The notes under the pieces were generated by a model that did not search any database, was not told where the DNA came from, and worked only from the letters and a program-made list of their open reading frames with translations. A stretch of 64,000 bases of DNA from Escherichia phage Baret. Below are positions 33,300-43,971 of the stretch, piece after piece (within the stretch, counting starts at the first letter, position 1; each line of letters starts with the position of its first letter). The DNA lies in sequence record OR896834.1; one strand, written 5' to 3'. The position numbers were made by a program, and so were the translations under genes.

Positions 33300-34090
33300 A
33301 GCGAGCCGATTACGCTGAACTTGTCTTAATGTAAGATGCGTCAAGCACTAAGATTCGTTGAATAGAGTCGGTGGGTTAGTTGTAAAACTAGTACACAGGG
33401 GGCGGCAATCCCGGTTAGTGGCTAGAACGTGTAAAATGAGGCGTCTGAAACCTCTCCCCTAAACTCTTCTCTAATTTATAAATAGTGGGGTGTGGAAATC
33501 ACTTATGTAGTAACACTGCCGTCCTAGTATAATTGGTATTATCAAGCCGTAACTGGTGGAAGATGTAGGTTCGAATCCTACGGTCGGTAAGAACTGGATA
33601 ACTGATGCTTTTAACGTAAAAGCTTCCGAGGTTAGTTGCGCACTGCCTAAACCACGCGGTAGTTGGTTCCAGACTAACCAACCAGTCTGCTGAATAGTTT
33701 TATTACGATTTAACTATGCCCAGGCTAAAGAAGAACTTTAGAAGGTATTCTAGGGTAGTGAAGTTCTTTCTCCATATCGGAGTAGTTTTTCAAGCTATCC
33801 ACAAAGTGGGAAATGCTGACATGAGAGATGTCACTAATGGTGCACAATAGCACAGGTAATTCGCGATAACTCCTGTTGAGTAGCAGCAAAAGGTGGGAAG
33901 TCATGACCCCAAGCCTAACCGAGTCCTCAATATACCGCAGGACATAACCACTAAGTCACCCTGACTTAAACTGGAAAATAATAGACGTTACCGTATTTTG
34001 TCTTGAAATACTTAATGAGTGAGACTTATGACTCTCCCGGTATCGTCTGTATTTTTAAGAGTTTTTACGAGAGTTCTTAAAAATACTTAA
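33300..34090 (+). other. ORF-free structured region (candidate noncoding RNAs) upstream of tRNA-Arg
   Basis: No ORF of 60 aa or more; stacked hairpins (GTTGGTT/AACCAAC, AAGAACTT/AAGTTCTT, TTTTTAAGA/TCTTAAAAA); DnaA-box-like CTATCCACA. Confidence 0.3.
33518..33589 (+). pseudogene. tRNA-like element (degenerate)
   Basis: Canonical T-arm GTAGG-TTCGAAT-CCTAC and 6/7 acceptor pairing, but no convincing anticodon arm. Confidence 0.25.
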
Positions 34091-35879: not shown

Positions 35880-35957
35880 GGTTCTCAAGCTCATATGGTA
35901 TGAGCACCCGGCTCATAACCGGAAGGTACGTAGGTTCGAATCCTCGGGGAGCCACCA
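35880..35957 (+). tRNA. tRNA with CAU anticodon (Met/Ile2-type), CCA encoded
   Basis: Acceptor GGTTCTC/GGGAGCC, D-arm GCTC...GAGC, anticodon loop CTCATAA; T-stem has mismatches. Confidence 0.5.
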
Positions 35958-36173: not shown

Positions 36174-36250
36174 GGGGGTGTAATCGAATTGGCATAGGTA
36201 CTGGACTTAAAATTCAGGTTTTGTGGGTTCGAATCCCACCACCCCTACCA
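36174..36250 (+). tRNA. tRNA with UAA anticodon (Leu by anticodon), type I length, CCA encoded
   Basis: Acceptor GGGGGTG/CACCCCT, anticodon arm CTGGA-CTTAAAA-TTCAG, T-arm GTGGG-TTCGAAT-CCCAC; D region GAATTGGCATA lacks a clear stem. Confidence 0.55.
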
Positions 36251-36265
36251 AATTAAGGAAATAAG

Positions 36266-36433
36266 ATGTATAGACACCCACCTCCGCCAACACGTCGTTC
36301 TAGAGAAGTTATCCTCATGGAATTGACTAAAAACTTCAAGGCAACTCTTGAGGATAGAGATTTAGGCACGGATGAAGACATTGATTTTATTTGTAGACTA
36401 TTAAAGATGAAACTGGAGAAACAACATGGCTAA
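36266..36433 (+). CDS. hypothetical micro-protein (55 aa), not in ORF track
   Basis: ATG after AAGGAA RBS; overlaps next ORF start. Confidence 0.35.
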   Translation: MYRHPPPPTRRSREVILMELTKNFKATLEDRDLGTDEDIDFICRLLKMKLEKQHG

Positions 36434-36632
36434 TCCTGAAATTACCATGCAACGATTCATGGCTAAAGGCATGATAGCTGAGGCAGGCATTGAACAAGAA
36501 GTAAAAAGTTATTACGAACAGATTAAGGGTATTGTAGACTCGGCTAAAAACACCGGAGAAAAAGAACATGGTGCGGCAATTATGGCTATAACTCTTATTA
36601 GTCTAGACTTGGCCGAAGAATCTGGAGTTTAG
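36426..36632 (+). CDS. hypothetical protein (68 aa)
   Basis: Track ORF, GGAG RBS. Confidence 0.45.
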   Translation: MANPEITMQRFMAKGMIAEAGIEQEVKSYYEQIKGIVDSAKNTGEKEHGAAIMAITLISLDLAEESGV

Positions 36633-36662
36633 CTCCTCCAAACAGAATTTTTAAAAATGTAC

Positions 36663-36692
36663 TTGCCTTTTGCCTTAAATTTCTGATATAAT
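36663..36692 (+). promoter_or_regulatory. sigma70 promoter (TTGCCT-18-TATAAT)
   Basis: acttgccttttgccttaaatttctgatataat. Confidence 0.6.
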
Positions 36693-36722
36693 AATTATAT
36701 AAATTGATGGAGGAGTTAACGA

Positions 36723-36998
36723 ATGCAAAATCGTGTTGTAGCAACTGGTATTGAAAGTGCAATCTGTAAATCCTGGGAAGGCTGGGAAGGTGAGATTGAA
36801 TGGCTTTATTTCTATGATGTAGAACTTCTACCGGAAGTTAAAGCTAAATGTATTGAAGCTGGCATGGCTCCAGATGCAAAAGCTGATATTGATATTTTAA
36901 TGTCTGAACTTAAAGGTCGTGTAGTTACCGTTAGTAATGAGGGCGAAGAAGTTTTCGAACTTCCATTTTCCTTAACTGTCACTCCTAAGTTCGACTAA
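36723..36998 (+). CDS. hypothetical protein (91 aa)
   Basis: Track ORF, GGAGGAG RBS. Confidence 0.5.
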   Translation: MQNRVVATGIESAICKSWEGWEGEIEWLYFYDVELLPEVKAKCIEAGMAPDAKADIDILMSELKGRVVTVSNEGEEVFELPFSLTVTPKFD

Positions 36999-37006
36999 CT
37001 AATACA

Positions 37007-37045
37007 GCACTGAGCAAGTTCTTTAAAATTTGACTTGCTCAGTGC
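37007..37045. repeat. 12-bp perfect inverted repeat enclosing the -35 of the next promoter
   Basis: GCACTGAGCAAG (37007-18) and CTTGCTCAGTGC (37034-45). Confidence 0.6.
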
Positions 37046-37063
37046 CTTAAAACTTGATATAAT
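37035..37063 (+). promoter_or_regulatory. sigma70 promoter (TTGCTC-17-TATAAT) for tRNA unit
   Basis: ttgctcagtgccttaaaacttgatataat. Confidence 0.6.
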
Positions 37064-37079
37064 AGTTATCTAATTCGGA

Positions 37080-37129
37080 AACATATTTAAAAGTGTTTAA
37101 ACTAGTATTTGAATACTTTTAAATATGTT
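37080..37129. repeat. 15-bp perfect inverted repeat (leader hairpin) abutting tRNA-Tyr 5' end
   Basis: AACATATTTAAAAGT (37080-94) and ACTTTTAAATATGTT (37115-29), 20-nt spacer containing GTTTAAAC. Confidence 0.7.
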
Positions 37130-37217
37130 GGATTAGTATCGTAGAGGTAGCGAAGCAGACTGTAAATCTGCCGACTCGGAAGGGTCTCGGGTGGTTCGAC
37201 TCCATCATCCAACACCA
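37127..37217 (+). tRNA. tRNA-Tyr (anticodon GUA), type II, CCA encoded
   Basis: Acceptor GTTGGAT/ATCCAAC, anticodon arm GCAGA-CTGTAAA-TCTGC, long variable arm, T-arm GGTGG-TTCGACT-CCATC. Confidence 0.8.
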
Positions 37218-37224
37218 AATTTAA

Positions 37225-37301
37225 GTCCTGTTAGACAAACTGGTAAAGTCACTACCCTTTCAAGGTAGGGTTTGCGGGTTCGATCCCCGCACAGGACGCC
37301 A
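37225..37301 (+). tRNA. tRNA-Glu (anticodon UUC), CCA encoded
   Basis: Acceptor GTCCTGT/ACAGGAC, anticodon arm CTACC-CTTTCAA-GGTAG, T-arm GCGGG-TTCGATC-CCCGC. Confidence 0.8.
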
Positions 37302-37310
37302 ATTAATAAT

Positions 37311-37381
37311 TGGGGTACGCATAGGTTGCAAATGGGCCTCCAAAACCCATGAAAAGGTTTCGAATACCTTTACCCCTGCCA
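37311..37381 (+). tRNA. tRNA, probable Trp (anticodon CCA), CCA encoded
   Basis: T-arm AAGGT-TTCGAAT-ACCTT, acceptor TGGGGTA/TACCCCT (1:72 mismatch), anticodon loop CTCCAAA with 4-bp stem. Confidence 0.45.
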
Positions 37382-37387
37382 AAATTT

Positions 37388-37462
37388 GCACCTTTAGCTG
37401 AGATGGATTAGCGCTTGCCTGAAGAGCTTGAGAGGTTCGTTCGATACGAACAGGGTGCACCA
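37388..37462 (+). tRNA. tRNA, possibly Phe (anticodon GAA), CCA encoded
   Basis: Acceptor GCACCTT/AGGGTGC, D-arm GCT...AGC, T-arm GTTCG-TTCGATA-CGAAC; loop CTGAAGA but anticodon stem has U-U mismatches. Confidence 0.45.
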
Positions 37463-37478
37463 AATTGAAGGAGATGCT

Positions 37479-37749
37479 GATGCATCCTGAAAACTTCTTT
37501 ATTTACTGCGCGGATAAGTTGCTGAAACGTAGAATTAACAAAGTCTATCATTATCGTGTTAGTCAACAGCCTTATGTATACGCTTTTGACGGTGATCACA
37601 TTTCATTAGAACAATTATCTTGTGATTACATGATATTGAAGAACTTTGACGAGACGAAGATCTCAAGCGTTCACAATCGACAGAATCCATTAACGTGGAA
37701 ATATAAGAAAAAGAAAGGCATCAAATTCTTAAAAAATGTAGTTGCTTAG
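37479..37749 (+). CDS. hypothetical protein (90 aa)
   Basis: ATG 6 nt after AAGGAG; track start adjusted. Confidence 0.45.
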
Positions 37750-37770
37750 TTTCCAAAAGTTCTGTATAAT
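37742..37770 (+). promoter_or_regulatory. sigma70 promoter (TTGCTT-17-TATAAT)
   Basis: ttgcttagtttccaaaagttctgtataat. Confidence 0.6.
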
Positions 37771-37799
37771 AAATACATAAATTGAACTGGAGAAGCAAC

Positions 37800-38018
37800 A
37801 TGACAGAACAAGAATTGAATGAACGTAAGCTAGTAATGCTTCGCTTACTAAATATTTTCTCTGGTATGGACGGTGGTGGTGATTTCTTAAGACTTAAGGT
37901 ATTTACAGAAACTGCCGAAGGTGATGCAATCTCTAGAGTTATTAGGAACATGGGAAGCCTGCTAGATGTGGCTGGAGTAGCTACTCAATACACCTTAGAT
38001 AATCCTACTGGAGAATAA
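37800..38018 (+). CDS. hypothetical protein (72 aa)
   Basis: ATG after GGAGAAG RBS. Confidence 0.45.
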   Translation: MTEQELNERKLVMLRLLNIFSGMDGGGDFLRLKVFTETAEGDAISRVIRNMGSLLDVAGVATQYTLDNPTGE

Positions 38019-38210
38019 ATGAGAAGATTAGTTAGATTTAAGTGTTGTAGTTCTGAACATATTTTCACACATCTTCGTGAATTTAAAATGTGTGATTGTG
38101 GTAAATCAGGCTATGACTCTGGAAATGGGTTCTACACCCGTACTCTAGGGAACTTCAATGATTTAGAATTTGAAGATCTCGAAAAACAAGATAAACCGAC
38201 CGTTGGCTGA
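38019..38210 (+). CDS. hypothetical Cys-rich micro-protein (63 aa)
   Basis: C-C...C-x-C pattern; start overlaps upstream stop. Confidence 0.4.
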   Translation: MRRLVRFKCCSSEHIFTHLREFKMCDCGKSGYDSGNGFYTRTLGNFNDLEFEDLEKQDKPTVG

Positions 38211-38272
38211 ATGGCTTAGGCGAAGGATTGCAAATCCTTTTTATGTGAGTTCAAATCTCATGCGGTCGTCCA
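38197..38272 (+). tRNA. tRNA-Cys (anticodon GCA), CCA encoded
   Basis: Acceptor CGACCGT/GCGGTCG, anticodon arm AAGGA-TTGCAAA-TCCTT, T-arm GTGAG-TTCAAAT-CTCAT. Confidence 0.75.
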
Positions 38273-38293
38273 AATTACTAAAGGAAAGAAGTA

Positions 38294-38812
38294 GTGCATA
38301 CAAAAGTTTTTGATAGTTTGGTAAAGAAAGGCGTTGTTACTAACGAGCCCTTCTATATAACCGCAGAACTAATCCAGAGATTTATGGAAGAATATATAAA
38401 TCTTTCAGGAACCAATGGTAATACCAAAAAGAATACAAATACTATGTATTCGAGAAAACTTGCTGCACTTTCCTTTATAAAGTTTAAGCAGGAAAATAAA
38501 CTTCCTATTTCTGAAGGTTTTGTATACTGTATTAGTAATCCTGCATGGAAAAATCAGTATAAAATAGGTATGAGTCAAAATCCAAAAGAGAGATTAGCTC
38601 AATATCAGACTTATTCCCCTTATAGGGATTATAAGTTAGAGCATTGGTCTTTTTGGTTTGACAAACGAAAAGGTGAAAAACTAATTCACCAGTATTTCAA
38701 AGATTTAAAAGAACATGAGTGGTTTAGTATAAATTCTAGGGATCTTAGTAAATATCTAGAACGTATTAACTCTAGTTCTGACTTATATGGTTCCTTAGCT
38801 CTAATTGGTTAG
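38294..38812 (+). CDS. T5orf172/GIY-YIG-like domain protein (172 aa, GTG start)
   Basis: GFVYCISNPAWKNQYKIGMSQNPKERLAQYQT matches the T5orf172 (MUG113) signature; 3' end overlaps tRNA-Asn by ~24 nt. Confidence 0.55.
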   Translation: MHTKVFDSLVKKGVVTNEPFYITAELIQRFMEEYINLSGTNGNTKKNTNTMYSRKLAALSFIKFKQENKLPISEGFVYCISNPAWKNQYKIGMSQNPKERLAQYQTYSPYRDYKLEHWSFWFDKRKGEKLIHQYFKDLKEHEWFSINSRDLSKYLERINSSSDLYGSLALIG

Positions 38813-38866
38813 AGCGGCATCTTGTTAAGTTGAGGGTTGCTGGTTCGAATCCAACAGGAACCGCCA
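38789..38866 (+). tRNA. tRNA-Asn (anticodon GUU), CCA encoded
   Basis: Acceptor GGTTCCT/AGGAACC, D-arm GCTC...GAGC, anticodon loop TTGTTAA (stem with mismatches), T-loop TTCGAAT. Confidence 0.6.
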
Positions 38867-38968
38867 AATTCTGTGTAGAGTTAAGTAAACCGGTAGCCAA
38901 CCAGCTATCATTGCTGACATCGAATTCAGCCATAGATACCATTTTCGTTAATAACTGAGGAAACAAGC

Positions 38969-39154
38969 ATGTCCAAGAATGTAATTGCGCAGCTAGAAGT
39001 TCATCGTGATAGCACTATCAACAATATTGAAGTTGAGAAGAAATACATAGAAGAACTTAAACATGATATACTGGTAAGTCTCAACCGTCTTAATGTACGA
39101 AAAGAGTTTCTTAAAGAACTTAATGCAGCTATTGAAAAACTCAAAGCTGAGTAA
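38969..39154 (+). CDS. hypothetical coiled-coil micro-protein (61 aa)
   Basis: Track ORF. Confidence 0.4.
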   Translation: MSKNVIAQLEVHRDSTINNIEVEKKYIEELKHDILVSLNRLNVRKEFLKELNAAIEKLKAE

Positions 39155-39163
39155 ATGAATTAT

Positions 39164-39240
39164 GCGACCGGGGCTGGCTTGGTAATGGTACTCCCCTGTC
39201 ACGGGAGAGAATGTGGGTTCAAATCCCATCGGTCGCGCCA
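39164..39240 (+). tRNA. tRNA-Asp (anticodon GUC), CCA encoded
   Basis: Acceptor GCGACCG/CGGTCGC, anticodon arm CTCCC-CTGTCAC-GGGAG, T-arm GTGGG-TTCAAAT-CCCAT. Confidence 0.8.
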
Positions 39241-39257
39241 AATAAGGTAGGTTAGCT

Positions 39258-39416
39258 ATGGAACGTAGGGAGTTTACTCCAGAAGAGATAGAGCAGATAA
39301 AAGAATCTGCTATGAAAAATGCTAGAATATCTCTGTCACTGGAAGGTATCATTATTAGTGATGTAAACTTTGAAAAAATCAAAGCCATAGCTGATGAACT
39401 GGAAAAAGTAATTTAA
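39258..39416 (+). CDS. VbhA/FicA-antitoxin-like micro-protein (52 aa), not in ORF track
   Basis: AAGGTAGG RBS; sequence NARISLSLEG contains the (S/T)xxxE(G/N) inhibitory motif of Fic antitoxins. Confidence 0.45.
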   Translation: MERREFTPEEIEQIKESAMKNARISLSLEGIIISDVNFEKIKAIADELEKVI

Positions 39417-39417
39417 T

Positions 39418-39493
39418 ACATCCATAGCTCAATGGTTAGAGCTACCGCCTCTTAAGCGGAGGGTTCTAGGTTCAAGTCCTAGTGGGTGTACCA
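39418..39493 (+). tRNA. tRNA-Lys (anticodon CUU), CCA encoded
   Basis: Acceptor ACATCCA/TGGGTGT, D-arm GCTC...GAGC, anticodon loop CTCTTAA, T-arm CTAGG-TTCAAGT-CCTAG. Confidence 0.75.
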
Positions 39494-39519
39494 AATTAAA
39501 CTAGCACGAGAAATATGCT

Positions 39520-39867
39520 ATGATTAATGCTAAAGAAGAATTGTTACTTGCCCTAAAGAATACTAATTCTGAAGTTAAGTGTATTAAGATAGAATTCGGT
39601 TATTATGGGGATAAAGAAGTTTGGGTATTACCCGTAGGTTATACAGAAAAAGATATTGAAGATTTTCTAGATAATCTAGACTTTAAATATGATTCTGGTT
39701 TCGGCGGACAATTGCTTTATGGTAACGTATGGTTTACCGATGGAACTTGGTTAGAACGTGGTGAATATGATGGTTCTGAATGGTGGGAATATAAGACTAC
39801 ACCAGCAATCCCAGAAGAATGCCGAACAATTAATGGTGAAGTAGATCGTACTTTACTATTAAATTAA
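39520..39867 (+). CDS. hypothetical protein (115 aa)
   Basis: Track ORF. Confidence 0.5.
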   Translation: MINAKEELLLALKNTNSEVKCIKIEFGYYGDKEVWVLPVGYTEKDIEDFLDNLDFKYDSGFGGQLLYGNVWFTDGTWLERGEYDGSEWWEYKTTPAIPEECRTINGEVDRTLLLN

Positions 39868-39869
39868 CA

Positions 39870-40250
39870 AAATTTCAGTGCAGAACACGGAGCTAGCAAT
39901 TCGGAAGTGCTGACTCATGATAAGCTGCCTATGTACTTGCGAAGCGGTCGTGTCCAAGACTCGGACTCTTGCACTGAAAACAATCAAACATTCTAGCGTG
40001 GTTGATGGGGAAACCAGCTTGGCGAGGGCAGAAGCTCGTTCGATTCGAGTGAAAGAATGGTTCTCGTAAGTCCGCACAAGTGATAACAGGTTCGAGTCCT
40101 GTCTAGAATGACACTATAAAGTTTACTTATTATGTAGGTTCCGATAGACCGGCGGGTCTATTCTGGCATTTAAGAGAGGTCTCGCAAACTTCTTTGTCAG
40201 CCGTGGGGTTGGTAGCCTCCAGGTGGCCTACACAATAAGTAAATTTATTA
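39870..40250 (+). other. ORF-free structured region with tRNA-like modules
   Basis: T-arm-like hairpins CTCG-TTCGATT-CGAG and ACAGG-TTCGAGT-CCTGT; 7-nt pairing ATTCTAG (39990-96) with CTAGAAT (40103-09) spanning ~120 nt. Confidence 0.3.
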
Positions 40251-40259
40251 AAAATTCAT

Positions 40260-40288
40260 TTGCTATTCTGCTTTATTATCTGTATAAT
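40260..40288 (+). promoter_or_regulatory. sigma70 promoter (TTGCTA-17-TATAAT)
   Basis: aaaaattcatttgctattctgctttattatctgtataat. Confidence 0.65.
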
Positions 40289-40320
40289 ATATTTTATAAA
40301 GTGAAGAGAAGGAAAGCAAA

Positions 40321-40479
40321 ATGAAACACAAGATAGCTCAAGTTTTTATGGCATTATGGTGTATACCAATAGCTATAACAGCATTTAATCTAGATACTTT
40401 TACTATAGAAGAAAAATGTATCGGATTAGTTAGCGGTTTTAGTATGCTGGGCTTATCTTTGCTGTGGTTAAAGAAATAA
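40321..40479 (+). CDS. small hydrophobic membrane protein (52 aa), not in ORF track
   Basis: ATG after GAGAAGGAAAG RBS; two predicted TM segments. Confidence 0.45.
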   Translation: MKHKIAQVFMALWCIPIAITAFNLDTFTIEEKCIGLVSGFSMLGLSLLWLKK

Positions 40480-40483
40480 TATT

Positions 40484-40561
40484 CTCCGTGTAGCTCAGTT
40501 TGGCCAGAGCGTTTCGTTTGGGGCGATAGGGTCGGGGGTTCAAATCCTCCCACGGAGACCA
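40484..40561 (+). tRNA. tRNA-Pro (anticodon UGG), CCA encoded
   Basis: Acceptor CTCCGTG/CACGGAG, D-arm GCTC-AGTTTGGCCA-GAGC, anticodon loop TTTGGGG, T-loop TTCAAAT. Confidence 0.7.
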
Positions 40562-40567
40562 AACAAT

Positions 40568-40645
40568 TGCGGGTTAGATCTCTGGTAGAGATCGCTAGTC
40601 TCATAAGCTAGAAAGAGGTAGGTTCGATTCCTGCACCCGCTTCCA
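40568..40645 (+). tRNA. tRNA-Met (anticodon CAU; could be initiator or Ile2), CCA encoded
   Basis: Acceptor TGCGGGT/ACCCGCT (1:72 mismatch), D-arm GATC...GATC, anticodon arm CTAGT-CTCATAA-GCTAG. Confidence 0.7.
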
Positions 40646-40665
40646 CTTTAATAGAGGATTTCGAA

Positions 40666-40833
40666 ATGAAAGTATTTCGATTAGTAGTAAGTGACAAACG
40701 TTTAGGTAAGAATACCTCAAAATCCTTACTTGCTCATTATGGAAAAGATGAGAAAGAAGTAATGGCGGAGTTTGGGATTAATCACCCTTACTTGAAAGTT
40801 CACTCTATTAAAGAAGTATATAATGGTTACTAA
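40666..40833 (+). CDS. hypothetical micro-protein (55 aa), not in ORF track
   Basis: ATG 8 nt after AGAGGA RBS. Confidence 0.4.
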   Translation: MKVFRLVVSDKRLGKNTSKSLLAHYGKDEKEVMAEFGINHPYLKVHSIKEVYNGY

Positions 40834-40834
40834 T

Positions 40835-40913
40835 AGATCGCTAGCTCAATAGGTTTAGTAGCATCCGACTTTTAATCGGAAGGTTCTGGGTTCGAGTCCC
40901 AGGCGATCTACCA
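40835..40913 (+). tRNA. tRNA-Lys (anticodon UUU), CCA encoded
   Basis: Acceptor AGATCGC/GCGATCT, anticodon arm TCCGA-CTTTTAA-TCGGA, T-arm CTGGG-TTCGAGT-CCCAG. Confidence 0.8.
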
Positions 40914-40931
40914 ATTTCAAGAAAAACGCAG

Positions 40932-40960
40932 TTGCTTGATGCTTAATTTCTTGTTATAAT
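40932..40960 (+). promoter_or_regulatory. sigma70 promoter (TTGCTT-17-TATAAT) for RNA-only unit
   Basis: ttgcttgatgcttaatttcttgttataat. Confidence 0.65.
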
Positions 40961-40972
40961 ATTTATATAAAT

Positions 40973-40994
40973 TGATGAGGATTTCTCCTCATCA
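40973..40994. repeat. perfect 9-bp hairpin at transcript 5' end
   Basis: TGATGAGGA-tttc-TCCTCATCA; the 5' arm is the conserved leader box that elsewhere provides the RBS. Confidence 0.6.
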
Positions 40995-41198
40995 TAGTTC
41001 ACTAAGGTATTAGCTCGACCTAGGACTGGCTGCCAAAAAGCACGATCCCTACGATTCGGGAGGAGTTCTAGATTAGTCCACTAGATTCAGCGGCAACTGA
41101 ATAGTGTATTGGGTTTGCGAGATGACGCGGTTCCTTCCGCTCGAAGCGAAGGTGCTGTAGTTACGCCGAGCTAATAGCCTTAGTAAACTAAAGAATTT

Positions 41199-41277
41199 GG
41201 GGGATGGGTCTGCTAGGGGTGGACACCTCGCTTGCACCGAGGACATCAGAACGATTCGAATTCGTTATCCTCCACCA
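41199..41277 (+). tRNA. tRNA-Ala (anticodon UGC), CCA encoded
   Basis: Acceptor GGGGGAT/ATCCTCC, anticodon arm CCTCG-CTTGCAC-CGAGG, T-arm AACGA-TTCGAAT-TCGTT. Confidence 0.8.
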
Positions 41278-41282
41278 AATAC

Positions 41283-41359
41283 GCGTGATTGATGGAATTG
41301 GCATACATACCGTCCTTAGAAGTCGGGTTTTGAGGGTTCGAATCCCTTGTCACGCACCA
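41283..41359 (+). tRNA. tRNA with UAG anticodon (Leu by anticodon), type I length, CCA encoded
   Basis: Acceptor GCGTGAT/GTCACGC, anticodon loop CTTAGAA, T-arm GAGGG-TTCGAAT-CCCTT; D region GAATTGGCATA shared with tRNA at 36174. Confidence 0.55.
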
Positions 41360-41720: not shown

Positions 41721-41811
41721 GGAAGAGCAAATCGAATTGGCGACGAAAACCGCTTGGAAAGTGGCTGACTGGTAAAACGGCTTGAGAGTTCAAATCTCTC
41801 CTCTTCCGCCA
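41721..41811 (+). tRNA. tRNA-Ser (anticodon GGA), type II, CCA encoded
   Basis: Acceptor GGAAGAG/CTCTTCC, D-stem TCG/CGA, anticodon loop TTGGAAA, long variable arm, T-arm GAGAG-TTCAAAT-CTCTC. Confidence 0.65.
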
Positions 41812-41823
41812 AACAATTTATAT

Positions 41824-41918
41824 GGTAGGTCAATCCAACGGCTGGCGCTGGACTCCGACTTGAAATCGGTTGATCGTAGTGATACGGTGTAAGGGTTCGA
41901 TCCCCTTACCTACCTCCA
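41824..41918 (+). tRNA. tRNA-Ser (anticodon UGA), type II, CCA encoded
   Basis: Acceptor GGTAGGT/ACCTACC, anticodon loop CTTGAAA, long variable arm, T-arm AAGGG-TTCGATC-CCCTT. Confidence 0.7.
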
Positions 41919-41923
41919 AATCT

Positions 41924-42054
41924 TGGAATATGCCGGAATTGGTAGACGGGACTGCCGAATAGGTTTACTAGGAACATCCACTCCTAGAAATATACCTTAA
42001 AAGCGGTTGAGTTAAATGGTCTAACTCATGAAGGTTCAAGCCCTTCTATTCCTT
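41924..42054 (+). other. oversized tRNA-like element (~131 nt; alternative 85-nt fold from 41970)
   Basis: T-arm GAAGG-TTCAAGC-CCTTC; 3' TATTCCT pairs with TGGAATA (41924) or AGGAACA (41970); D-like GCCGGAATTGGTAGACGG; 7-bp internal hairpin TGAGTTA/TAACTCA; no CCA. Confidence 0.3.
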
Positions 42055-42283: not shown

Positions 42284-42357
42284 GTGGCTATATCATAATT
42301 GGTTAATGATCCTGATTGTGAATCAGGCCTATGTGGATTCGAATTCCACTAGCCACC
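42284..42357 (+). tRNA. tRNA-His (anticodon GUG)
   Basis: Acceptor GTGGCTA/TAGCCAC, D-arm TCAT...ATGA, anticodon arm CCTGA-TTGTGAA-TCAGG, T-arm GTGGA-TTCGAAT-TCCAC. Confidence 0.75.
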
Positions 42358-42386
42358 CCCAAATTAACTTAAATAGGAAATAAAAT

Positions 42387-43895: not shown

Positions 43896-43971
43896 AGTTA
43901 GTTGGCAGAGTGGTTATGCACCTCCTTCATACGGAGCGACTACAGTGGTTCAAATCCACTACTAACTACCA
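43896..43971 (+). tRNA. tRNA with CAU anticodon (third CAU tRNA; Met/fMet/Ile2), CCA encoded
   Basis: Acceptor AGTTAGT/ACTAACT, D-arm GCA...TGC, anticodon loop TTCATAC, T-arm AGTGG-TTCAAAT-CCACT. Confidence 0.7.

What the first reader, a model, noticed from the sequence alone, without database searches (positions are those of the whole stretch)
36174..41359. Two type-I-length tRNAs with Leu anticodons sharing a stem-less D region; three CAU tRNAs; CCA encoded
tRNAs at 36174 (anticodon UAA) and 41283 (UAG) are only ~74 nt, whereas bacterial tRNA-Leu is class II with a long variable arm. Both share the D-region GAATTGGCATA with no obvious D-stem, so they are paralogues of unusual architecture whose charging identity is uncertain. 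Three CAU-anticodon tRNAs (35880, 40568, 43896) likely cover initiator, elongator Met and lysidine-Ile2. Nearly all tRNAs encode the 3' CCA.
Basis: seen in the sequence. Interest (0 to 1): 0.5.

Follow-up and report, generated by a model that had tools for sequence, protein, structure and literature searches.

The report
Short-armed leucine tRNAs in T5-like phage
A T5-like phage carries two leucine tRNAs that lack the long extra arm found on its host's leucine tRNAs but keep every feature the host charging enzyme is known to read; many other phages and some bacteria have the same short form, so it is a little-noticed variant, not a new kind of molecule.

Summary
ARAGORN and Rfam both call 36174-36250 (UAA) and 41283-41359 (UAG) as 74-nt + CCA tRNAs with a 5-nt variable loop. 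"Stem-less D region" is wrong. Both have a 3-bp D stem, G13·A22 and an 11-nt loop, the D-arm layout of E. coli tRNALeu.

The window is a T5-like phage, 99.9% identical to vB_Eco_mar004NP2. Both tRNAs keep A73, U8-A14, A15-U48, G18G19, A20a and U54-A58, the published E. coli LeuRS identity set. That set does not include the long arm.

UUA and CUA make up 46% of the phage's Leu codons, against about 17% in an E. coli sample. These codons sit at Leu-conserved positions in NrdA, NrdD and ThyA. The tRNAs are therefore most likely leucine tRNAs charged by host LeuRS, but no charging data exist.

They are not unique. Identical genes annotated tRNA-Leu occur in hundreds of T5-like records. Homologues occur in Felixounavirus, Seunavirus and N4-like phages, and the short form is chromosomal in many Actinomycetota. 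Type I tRNALeu was described in Streptomyces in 2019.

One tension remains: E. coli LeuRS failed to charge the Streptomyces type I tRNALeu.

The three CAU tRNAs match T5's annotated fMet, Met and Ile2 genes. CCA is encoded in 22 of 23 tRNAs.

The parts
36174..36250 (+). Class I tRNALeu(UAA), 74 nt + CCA. Features: G1·U72, U8, 3-bp D stem AUC/GGU, G13·A22, D loop AAUUGGCAU, anticodon loop CUUAAAA, variable loop GUUUU, T loop UUCGAAU, A73.
   Evidence: ARAGORN; RF00005 at 57.4 bits with alignment; 100% identical in about 290 phage records annotated tRNA-Leu.
41283..41359 (+). Class I tRNALeu(UAG), 74 nt + CCA. Features: G1-C72, U8, D stem AUG/CAU, G13·A22, the same D loop, anticodon stem with a U30·U40 mismatch, loop CUUAGAA (A37), variable loop GUUUU, A73.
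   Evidence: ARAGORN; RF00005 at 47.5 bits with alignment; at least 95% identical in about 161 phage records; homologues in Felixounavirus, Seunavirus and Pectobacterium phages.
41199..41277 (+). tRNA-Ala(UGC), 79 nt, atypical (G8, 7-nt variable loop, G3:U70). It lies 5 nt upstream of Leu(UAG) and forms an Ala-Leu(UAG) cassette with it.
   Evidence: ARAGORN only; not reported by RF00005 even at E<=0.5; homologous, with compensatory changes, to the tRNA-Ala that precedes a class I Leu(UAG) in Seunavirus SSE121.
35880..35957 (+). tRNA(CAU), orthologue of T5 tRNAIle2(CAU) (T5t23).
   Evidence: RF00005 at 40.3 bits; differs from T5t23 by a compensatory A-U to G-C change in the anticodon stem.
40568..40645 (+). 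tRNA(CAU), identical to T5 tRNAfMet (T5t14); U1·U72 mismatch, U73.
43896..43971 (+). tRNA(CAU), identical to T5 elongator tRNAMet (T5t01).
41924..42054 (+). Class II tRNALeu(UAA)-like RNA with a 40-nt insertion in the anticodon loop, U1·U72, U73 and no CCA. It is the orthologue of T5 'RNA1' (a tRNA-like stable RNA). It is context for the finding and probably not a decoder.
   Evidence: ARAGORN with introns allowed; alignment with T5 rna1 and the JLBYU40 'tRNA-Leu(taa)' of 134 nt, including a compensatory change in the variable arm.

Best explanation
Both genes encode functional phage leucine tRNAs that belong to a family of tRNALeu lacking the long variable arm (class I or 'type I' tRNALeu). 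Apart from the missing arm they have tRNALeu architecture. They have a 3-bp D stem, an unpaired N13·A22, A14, the A15-U48 Levitt pair, G18G19 in the Leu-specific register, A20a, U54-A58 and discriminator A73. Inferred step: host (E. coli or Salmonella) LeuRS reads exactly these elements, not the anticodon or the variable arm, and so charges them with leucine. tRNALeu(UAA) then reads UUA and UUG. tRNALeu(UAG) reads CUA and CUG, and possibly other CUN codons. These are the two Leu codon groups that this AT-rich phage uses far more than its host, so the tRNAs top up decoding capacity during infection. In T5-like phages the class I UAG gene and the classical class II T5 tRNALeu(UAG) are alternative occupants of the slot next to tRNA-Ala, which argues for the same job. 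Shown here: gene structure, family membership, conservation and covariation, codon usage and codon meaning. Inferred: expression in this phage, charging by LeuRS, and decoding range.
For: Structure.

Window identity: a T5-like phage.

Family-wide conservation: among 166 class I Leu-anticodon tRNAs from viral contigs, A73 is present in 164/166, U8 in 159/166 and U48 in 162/166. Among the 135 with a 17-nt D arm, A14 is present in 135, A15 in 133 and A20a in 134. None of these positions was fixed by the search pattern.

Covariation: on 86 distinct sequences the cloverleaf with a 3-bp D stem is 98.5% paired and all 20 pairs covary. The covariation score is 1.07, against 0.25 for shuffles and at most 0.20 for slid controls. 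A15:U48 is A-U in 84/86.

D arm: class II phage tRNALeu in the same contigs have the same D arm. E. coli tRNALeu have the same 3+11+3 D arm, GCG-GAAUUGGUAGA-CGC, and G1·U72 occurs in tRNALeu(UAA) and tRNALeu(GAG).

Other class II tRNAs: tRNASer stays long (84-97 nt apart from one 74-nt call) and tRNATyr mostly so (79-93 nt) in the same contigs.

[quoted passage not shown] Variants without the arm remain chargeable (PMC9976931; PMC2377443). tRNAscan-SE isotype models score Leu highest for the three short Leu tRNAs of the Ounavirinae phage Sf14 (PMC12482277).

Codon usage: the window has UUA at 22.2 and CUA at 18.3 per 1000 codons, 25% and 21% of Leu codons. An E. coli K-12 sample has 15.0 and 4.2 per 1000, 13% and 4%.

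Codon meaning: in NrdA, NrdD and ThyA aligned to homologues of 38-58% identity, columns at window UUA (29) are 63% Leu and at CUA (28) are 61% Leu. Other Leu codons give 52-61%, and no other residue exceeds 6%.

Slot equivalence: T5 has the 85-nt class II tRNALeu(UAG) next to tRNA-Ala where the window has the class I gene. The class II form occurs in 54 records. None of the 14 listed carriers of the class I UAG gene is among them.
Against: There are no aminoacylation or expression data for these tRNAs. In vitro, E. coli LeuRS did not charge the type I tRNALeu(CAA) of Streptomyces coelicolor, and the authors state that EcLeuRS charges only type II tRNALeu (PMC6614811). That tRNA, judged from actinobacterial homologues, also has A73, A14, A15 and U48, so the identity set may not be sufficient on its own. 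Single-sequence folding does not recover the cloverleaf. The UAG tRNA has a U30·U40 mismatch in its anticodon stem. It also has A37 where E. coli tRNALeu(UAG) has G37. One record annotates the same gene as 'tRNA-Pseudo-TAG' and another annotates the UAA gene as 'tRNA-Xle'. The covariation set was assembled from ARAGORN calls and a parser that optimises stems, which inflates the paired percentages. The D stem, however, was not used by the parser.
Confidence: 0.8

Rival explanations
1. The tRNAs do decode leucine, but the loss of the long arm is maintained mainly as a counter-defence. Under this view, arm-less tRNALeu escape host or competitor nucleases that recognise or cut the variable arm of class II tRNAs, so the phage keeps a leucine supply when host tRNALeu is destroyed.
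For: [quoted passage not shown] Phage tRNAs commonly differ from host tRNAs in ways proposed to evade anticodon nucleases (PMC10264068). The class I UAG tRNA also has an altered anticodon loop, CUUAGAA against host UUUAGGU. The class I form is recurrent in several unrelated virulent phage families.
Against: The literature searched describes no nuclease that targets the tRNALeu variable arm in bacteria. The same arm-less tRNALeu is a chromosomal single-copy gene in many Actinomycetota, so the form exists without any phage context. In a roughly unbiased viral sample most phage tRNALeu are still class II, 35 against 4.
Confidence: 0.12
2. The tRNAs are charged with an amino acid other than leucine, or are charged ambiguously, so that UUA and CUA are partly recoded during infection.
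For: The class I body is unlike host tRNALeu. EcLeuRS rejected another type I tRNALeu. In phage Sf14 the Leu(UAG) homologue scores nearly as well on the Ile2 and Lys isotype models as on Leu: 65.7 and 63.4 against 67.4.
Against: UUA and CUA make up 46% of the phage's Leu codons and sit at Leu-conserved columns as often as other Leu codons, with no second residue enriched. G3:U70 is absent and there is no long arm for SerRS. Most other synthetases read the anticodon as an identity element, and UAA or UAG would not fit them (PMC9976931; my general knowledge of aminoacyl-tRNA synthetase identity rules). A73, A15-U48 and A20a are conserved at 98-100% across the family.
Confidence: 0.03
3. The genes are decaying or unexpressed tRNA relics, that is, pseudogenes.
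For: One GenBank record labels the gene 'tRNA-Pseudo-TAG'. The D stem is weak and the MFE fold is not a cloverleaf. Decayed tRNA-like genes do exist nearby: Ser-like genes at 41721-41918 and the interrupted Leu-like RNA1 at 41924-42054.
Against: Rfam scores are 47-57 bits. CCA is encoded. The sequence is 100% identical across hundreds of phage genomes. All helices covary and the identity nucleotides are invariant across a diverse family. They are the only intact Leu tRNAs of this phage, and they match its most host-discordant Leu codons.
Confidence: 0.03

Closest known systems
Type I tRNALeu(CAA) of Streptomyces coelicolor (PMC6614811)
   Same: It is a bacterial-type tRNALeu with a 5-nt variable loop in place of the long arm. 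It coexists with class II tRNALeu and a single LeuRS, and the U8-A14 pair is important. Actinobacterial homologues found here share the AAUUGGYAGA D loop, U48 and A73.
   Different: The host system differs. ScoLeuRS does not use A73 and needs its own leucine-specific domain to accept the type I tRNA, and E. coli LeuRS did not charge it. The phage tRNAs must work with enterobacterial LeuRS. They have G13 and a GUUUU variable loop where the actinobacterial ones have C13 and variable loops such as CCAGU, ACAGU or CAAGU, and they carry UAA and UAG anticodons.
Classical class II tRNALeu: E. coli isoacceptors, T5 tRNALeu1(UAG), and the class II phage tRNALeu found in the same contigs
   Same: They share the D-arm architecture (3-bp stem, N13·A22, A14, A15, G18G19, A20a), U48, A73, frequent G1·U72 and an encoded CCA. 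In T5 the class II gene occupies the same genomic slot next to tRNA-Ala.
   Different: The window genes have no variable stem-loop: 5 nt against 13-15 nt. The UAG tRNA has A37 where the host has G37. They are not simple deletion derivatives of T5 tRNALeu1, because the stems differ throughout.
Animal mitochondrial tRNALeu(UUR/CUN)
   Same: These are class I tRNALeu, with identity set mainly by A73 and A14 (PMC9976931).
   Different: Mitochondrial tRNAs have relaxed D/T loops and a dedicated mitochondrial LeuRS. The phage tRNAs keep canonical G18G19 and a UUCGAAU elbow.
Engineered E. coli tRNALeu lacking the variable arm (Larkin et al. 2002, as summarised in PMC9976931)
   Same: They show that E. 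coli LeuRS can charge a tRNALeu body without the long arm, provided that A73 and the D/T tertiary pairs are intact.
   Different: These are artificial constructs, and I could not read their kinetics (the paper is not held). The phage tRNAs are natural and evolutionarily maintained.

Membership tests
tRNA (Rfam RF00005 cloverleaf) | Full-length match above the gathering score, with four helices. | tested here: met
   57.4 and 47.5 bits against a gathering score of 29, model positions 1-71; ARAGORN; family covariation in all 20 pairs.
Class I (type I) tRNA | Variable region of 4-5 nt with no stem. | tested here: met
   GUUUU (5 nt) in both genes.
Canonical bacterial class II tRNALeu | Long variable arm of more than 10 nt. 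| tested here: not met
   The variable loop is 5 nt. E. coli tRNALeu are 85-87 nt including CCA and T5 tRNALeu1 is 85 nt including CCA with a 13-nt variable region.
tRNALeu (E. coli LeuRS identity set) | Discriminator A73. | tested here: met
   A73 is present in both genes and is invariant in 86/86 and 164/166 family members.
tRNALeu (E. coli LeuRS identity set) | U8-A14, the A15-U48 Levitt pair, G18G19 in the Leu register of an 11-nt D loop on a 3-bp stem, A20a, and U54-A58. | tested here: met
   Read directly from the sequences. The family shows A14 in 135/135, A15 in 133/135, A20a in 134/135, U48 in 162/166 and A15:U48 in 84/86. The layout is the same in the E. coli tRNALeu sequences.
tRNALeu (function) | Leucylation by LeuRS and insertion of Leu at UUR/CUN codons. 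| not testable with these tools
   Only indirect evidence is available: UUA and CUA columns are 61-63% Leu in homologues. Against this, EcLeuRS rejected the Streptomyces type I tRNALeu.
Type I tRNALeu of the Streptomyces kind | A short variable loop whose length, not its sequence, matters, with charging that depends on a specialised LeuRS leucine-specific domain. | tested here: inconclusive
   The 5-nt loop is met. The dependence on a special LeuRS cannot be tested, and the enterobacterial host has the EcLeuRS type (PMC6614811).
Initiator tRNAfMet (40568) | A mismatch at 1-72, and three consecutive G-C pairs at the bottom of the anticodon stem. | tested here: inconclusive
   A U1·U72 mismatch is present. 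The anticodon stem is CUAGU/GCUAG, so the three G-C pairs are absent. The gene is identical to T5t14, annotated as initiator. T5 Met and fMet tRNAs were reported experimentally (Chen et al. 1975, cited in PMC4810235).
tRNAIle2 (lysidine, 35880) | A CAU anticodon on a tRNAIle-like body, with C34 modified by TilS. | tested here: inconclusive
   It is the orthologue of T5t23, annotated Ile2(CAU), with a compensatory change. Its anticodon stem CCCGG/CCGG resembles that of the window's tRNAIle(GAU). The modification cannot be tested.

The most novel reading that the evidence does not exclude
Loss of the variable arm in phage tRNALeu could be an adaptive escape from tRNA-targeting immunity, or from phage-induced host tRNA destruction, that keys on the long arm of class II tRNAs. 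If so, enterobacterial LeuRS must accept type I tRNALeu after all, provided they carry the E. coli-type D loop. That would overturn the statement that EcLeuRS charges only type II tRNALeu, and it would predict an as yet unknown nuclease acting on host tRNALeu.
Probability: 0.12. Interest if true: 0.7.

Novelty: new member of a known kind. Interest (0 to 1): 0.38.

Why it matters
Textbooks and the 2019 Streptomyces study treat bacterial tRNALeu as class II, with type I as a rarity confined to mitochondria and a few actinomycetes. The evidence here shows that arm-less tRNALeu are common. They occur in hundreds of T5-like genomes and in FelixO1-, rV5- and N4-like phages. They were about 4 of 42 tRNALeu in a roughly unbiased viral sample, and they are chromosomal in many Actinomycetota.

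These tRNAs keep the whole LeuRS identity set. For coliphages this creates a concrete, cheap experiment: does E. coli LeuRS charge a natural type I tRNALeu? The answer would refine the leucine identity rules. It also bears on orthogonal-tRNA engineering, on automated tRNA annotation (these genes are sometimes labelled 'Pseudo' or 'Xle'), and on the debate over whether phage tRNAs serve codon supply or defence evasion.

None of this changes what is known about T5 biology in a major way. The three CAU tRNAs and the encoded CCA are already documented for T5.

Tried and rejected
1. Class II refolding with another boundary. ARAGORN and Rfam give only the class I fold, and tRNA-Ala ends 5 nt upstream.

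2. Single-sequence thermodynamic folding as a test. It gives non-cloverleaf MFE structures with insignificant z-scores. E. coli tRNALeu(CAG) also fails this test, so it is uninformative.

3. A host origin. blastn found no match to the UAA tRNA in 5,426 E. coli genomes at E<=1.

4. A simple deletion of the arm from T5 tRNALeu1. The sequences differ throughout the stems.

5. Literature. Seven full-text searches and several papers (18, 26-28, 36, 73) gave no paper that remarks on class I tRNALeu in phages. Larkin et al. 2002 was not held, so the kinetics of arm-less E. coli tRNALeu are known to me only from reviews.

6. Expression data. The tRNA-seq supplement of PMC11555353 returned only E. coli tRNALeu entries in my search, so it gives no expression evidence for the phage genes.

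7. Census limits. The class I to class II ratio rests on 42 tRNAs from loci anchored on tRNA-Arg(UCU).

8. A mis-typed structure. My first structure string mis-specified one anticodon-stem pair. It was repeated correctly.

9. A phylogeny of class I against class II tRNALeu was not attempted, because the sample was selected for class I.

Full report
**What is there**

ARAGORN finds 22 tRNA genes on the + strand between 34092 and 43971. Rfam RF00005 finds 23 matches, including two that ARAGORN misses at 33518 and 35880. The two genes in the finding are called tRNA-Leu(taa) at 36174-36250 and tRNA-Leu(tag) at 41283-41359. Each is 77 nt including CCA.

Rfam aligns both end to end with the class I model, at 57.4 and 47.5 bits against a gathering score of 29. 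Both have a 5-nt variable loop GUUUU and discriminator A73. No class II alternative exists, and tRNA-Ala ends 5 nt before the UAG gene.

The two genes share GAATTGGCATA at the same position. They are identical at 55 of 77 positions, and their stems differ by compensatory changes.

**The D region is not stem-less**

Rfam pairs positions 10-12 with 23-25. The pairs are A-U, U-G, C-G in the UAA tRNA and A-U, U-A, G-C in the UAG tRNA. G13·A22 is unpaired and the loop has 11 nt.

This is the D arm of E. coli tRNALeu, GCG-GAAUUGGUAGA-CGC. The E. coli sequences come from supplementary file 3 of PMC11555353.

MFE folds of the single sequences are not cloverleaves (z = -1.2 and -1.4). The cloverleaf lies 1.5-3.8 kcal/mol above the MFE, and genuine E. 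coli tRNALeu(CAG) also fails to fold as a cloverleaf by MFE.

**Origin of the window**

The tRNA region is 99.9% identical to Escherichia phage vB_Eco_mar004NP2 and Salmonella phage EH4. Matches are found in 571 phage records, the top-ranked of which are T5-like Tequintavirus phages and their relatives.

In the curated T5 record the syntenic slot after tRNA-Ala holds the classical 85-nt class II tRNALeu1(UAG). The place of the UAA gene is occupied by the homing endonuclease gene hegA.

The class I UAA gene is at least 95% identical in about 324 phage records. The class I UAG gene reaches that level in about 161, nearly always annotated tRNA-Leu. One record uses 'tRNA-Xle' and another 'tRNA-Pseudo-TAG'. 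T5's class II gene is in only 54 records.

Some phages, including DaisyDussoix, Lindwurm and YZU-L1, combine the class I UAA gene with the class II UAG gene. None of the 14 listed carriers of the class I UAG gene is among the 54 class II carriers. The two forms therefore look like alternative occupants of one slot.

**A wide family**

Homologues occur outside T5-like phages:
- Felixounavirus KhF1 has three Leu tRNAs (UAG, CAA, UAA), all 78-79 nt.
- Seunavirus SSE121 has a class I UAG gene and a class II UAA gene.
- The N4-like Pseudomonas phage ZC08 has a class I UAA gene and a class II UAG gene.

The 124 loci held at that point (those 120 plus four phage-database loci) contain 166 class I Leu-anticodon tRNAs. 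Among them A73 is present in 164/166, U8 in 159/166 and U48 in 162/166. Among the 135 with a 17-nt D arm, A14 is present in 135, A15 in 133 and A20a in 134. None of these positions was constrained by the pattern.

The 3-bp D stem is paired in 98-100% of these tRNAs, with C-G and G-C almost equally frequent at 12:23. Position 13:22 is paired in only 5%. The 58 class II tRNALeu of the same contigs show the same arrangement. tRNASer stays long (84-97 nt apart from one 74-nt call) and tRNATyr mostly so (79-93 nt) in these contigs.

On 86 distinct 74-nt sequences the cloverleaf is 98.5% paired and all 20 pairs show changes on both sides. The covariation score is 1.07, against 0.25 for shuffles and at most 0.20 for slid partners. 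A15:U48 is A-U in 84/86. One caveat applies. The set derives from ARAGORN calls and from a parser that optimises three of the stems, so the percentages are somewhat inflated. The D stem was not used in that parsing.

In loci anchored instead on tRNA-Arg(UCU), a roughly unbiased sample, 4 of 42 Leu tRNAs are class I, 35 are class II and 3 are 81 nt.

It returned single chromosomal class I tRNALeu(UAA or CAA) genes in Mycobacterium, Nocardia, Gordonia, Rhodococcus, Arthrobacter, Bifidobacterium and Rothia. It also returned hits in Acidobacteriota, Planctomycetota and cyanobacteria, some inside tRNA arrays.

No close copy of the UAA tRNA exists in 5,426 E. coli genomes. All five E. coli tRNALeu species are class II.

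**Which amino acid**

According to the tRNA identity review (PMC9976931), E. coli LeuRS depends on A73, the A15-U48 pair, G18G19, A20a and the D/T tertiary pairs. [quoted passage not shown] Aquifex LeuRS behaves similarly (PMC2377443). Both window tRNAs carry the whole set, and the UAA tRNA even has G1·U72, as do E. coli tRNALeu(UAA) and tRNALeu(GAG).

Other synthetases that ignore the anticodon are excluded. There is no G3:U70 for AlaRS and no long arm for SerRS. That rule comes from PMC9976931 and my general knowledge of synthetase identity.

For the Ounavirinae phage Sf14, tRNAscan-SE isotype models score Leu highest for all three short Leu tRNAs (PMC12482277).

I also tested codon meaning directly. 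In 58 window ORFs, UUA and CUA are 25% and 21% of Leu codons, at 22.2 and 18.3 per 1000 codons. In 45 E. coli K-12 genes they are 13% and 4%, at 15.0 and 4.2 per 1000.

NrdA, NrdD and ThyA were aligned with 36, 65 and 86 homologues of 38-58% identity. The 29 columns at window UUA are 63% Leu, and the 28 columns at CUA are 61% Leu. The other four Leu codons give 52-61%. No other residue exceeds 6% at UUA or CUA columns. The codons these tRNAs read therefore mean leucine.

**The counter-evidence**

PMC6614811 reports that E. coli LeuRS did not charge the type I tRNALeu(CAA) of Streptomyces coelicolor. It describes EcLeuRS as charging only type II tRNALeu. Actinobacterial type I tRNALeu found here also have A73, A14, A15 and U48, so the identity set may not be sufficient in every body.

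The phage tRNAs differ from them. They have G13, as most E. coli tRNALeu do, where the actinobacterial ones have C13. They also have a GUUUU variable loop. Whether that matters is unknown.

The strongest indirect argument for charging comes from the phages themselves. Virulent enterobacterial phages of three families keep these genes with invariant identity nucleotides. In this window and in FelixO1-like phages they are the only intact Leu tRNAs.

**The other claims in the finding**

- 40568 is identical to T5t14, annotated as initiator tRNAfMet. It has a U1·U72 mismatch but not the three G-C pairs of the E. coli initiator.
- 43896 is identical to T5t01, the elongator tRNAMet.
- 35880 matches T5t23, tRNAIle2(CAU), apart from a compensatory A-U to G-C change in the anticodon stem.
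- T5-coded Met and fMet tRNAs were reported in 1975 (cited in PMC4810235).
- CCA follows the discriminator in 22 of 23 tRNA genes.

All of this is already known for T5.

**Comparison with what is known, and novelty**

The closest described case is the Streptomyces type I tRNALeu. Mitochondrial tRNALeu and engineered arm-less E. coli tRNALeu are functional analogues.

The window genes fail the defining feature of canonical bacterial class II tRNALeu, the long arm. They meet every tested feature of tRNALeu identity and of class I tRNAs.

Seven full-text searches found no paper that comments on class I tRNALeu in phages. The genes themselves have been in public records for years, labelled tRNA-Leu. 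I therefore rate this as a new, or at least unremarked, member of a known kind.

**Speculative extension**

[quoted passage not shown] Loss of the arm in tRNALeu could serve a similar purpose. No tRNALeu-arm nuclease is known, however, and the same form exists in bacterial chromosomes. I give this reading about 12%.

Noticed in passing
window 41924-42054 (+): A class II tRNALeu(UAA)-like gene with a 40-nt hairpin-forming insertion between positions 32 and 33, U1·U72, U73 and no CCA. It is the orthologue of T5 'RNA1' (a tRNA-like stable RNA of unknown function) and of the 134-nt 'tRNA-Leu(taa)' annotated in phage JLBYU40. Its variable arm shows a compensatory change between the window and T5.
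   Followed up: partly
window 41721-41811 and 41828-41918 (+): Two sub-threshold class II tRNA-like genes, Ser(GGA)-like and Ser(UGA)-like. They are found only with a relaxed ARAGORN threshold, and the second (41824-41914) also as a tRNA-Sec model hit of 38.3 bits (gathering score 47). They appear to be degenerate counterparts of T5 tRNASer2 and tRNASer1.
   Followed up: partly
window 41199-41277 (+); L003 3927-4005: An atypical tRNA-Ala(UGC): 79 nt, G8 in place of U8, a 7-nt variable loop, G3:U70 present. Rfam misses it even at E<=0.5. It is homologous, with compensatory stem changes, to the tRNA-Ala of Seunavirus SSE121, which also precedes a class I Leu(UAG). The Ala-Leu cassette therefore seems to be shared between unrelated phage families, and it differs from T5's Ala-Leu pair.
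   Followed up: partly
window 33518-33589 (+): A tRNA-like element found only by Rfam (35.5 bits), with an abnormal anticodon arm and no CCA. It lies upstream of tRNA-Arg, where T5 has the stable 'RNAX'.
   Followed up: no
window 42284-42362 (+): tRNA-His is followed by five C and then A, where T5 has four C. The CCA is therefore out of register by one C. It is the only tRNA in the cluster without an exact discriminator-CCA.
   Followed up: no
viral loci L005-L124; window 41283-41359: Class I Leu(UAG) tRNAs nearly always have the anticodon loop CUUAGAA with A37, which accounts for 56 of the 64 class I UAG tRNAs. E. coli tRNALeu(UAG) has UUUAGGU with G37. The phage tRNAs therefore lack the G36-G37 site for m1G37.
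   Followed up: no
genome loci L243-L362: Arm-less tRNALeu(UAA or CAA) is a conserved single chromosomal gene across many Actinomycetota genera, including Mycobacterium, Nocardia, Rhodococcus, Arthrobacter, Bifidobacterium and Rothia. It also appears inside large tRNA arrays in some genomes. This is broader than the 'rare' status given in PMC6614811.
   Followed up: partly
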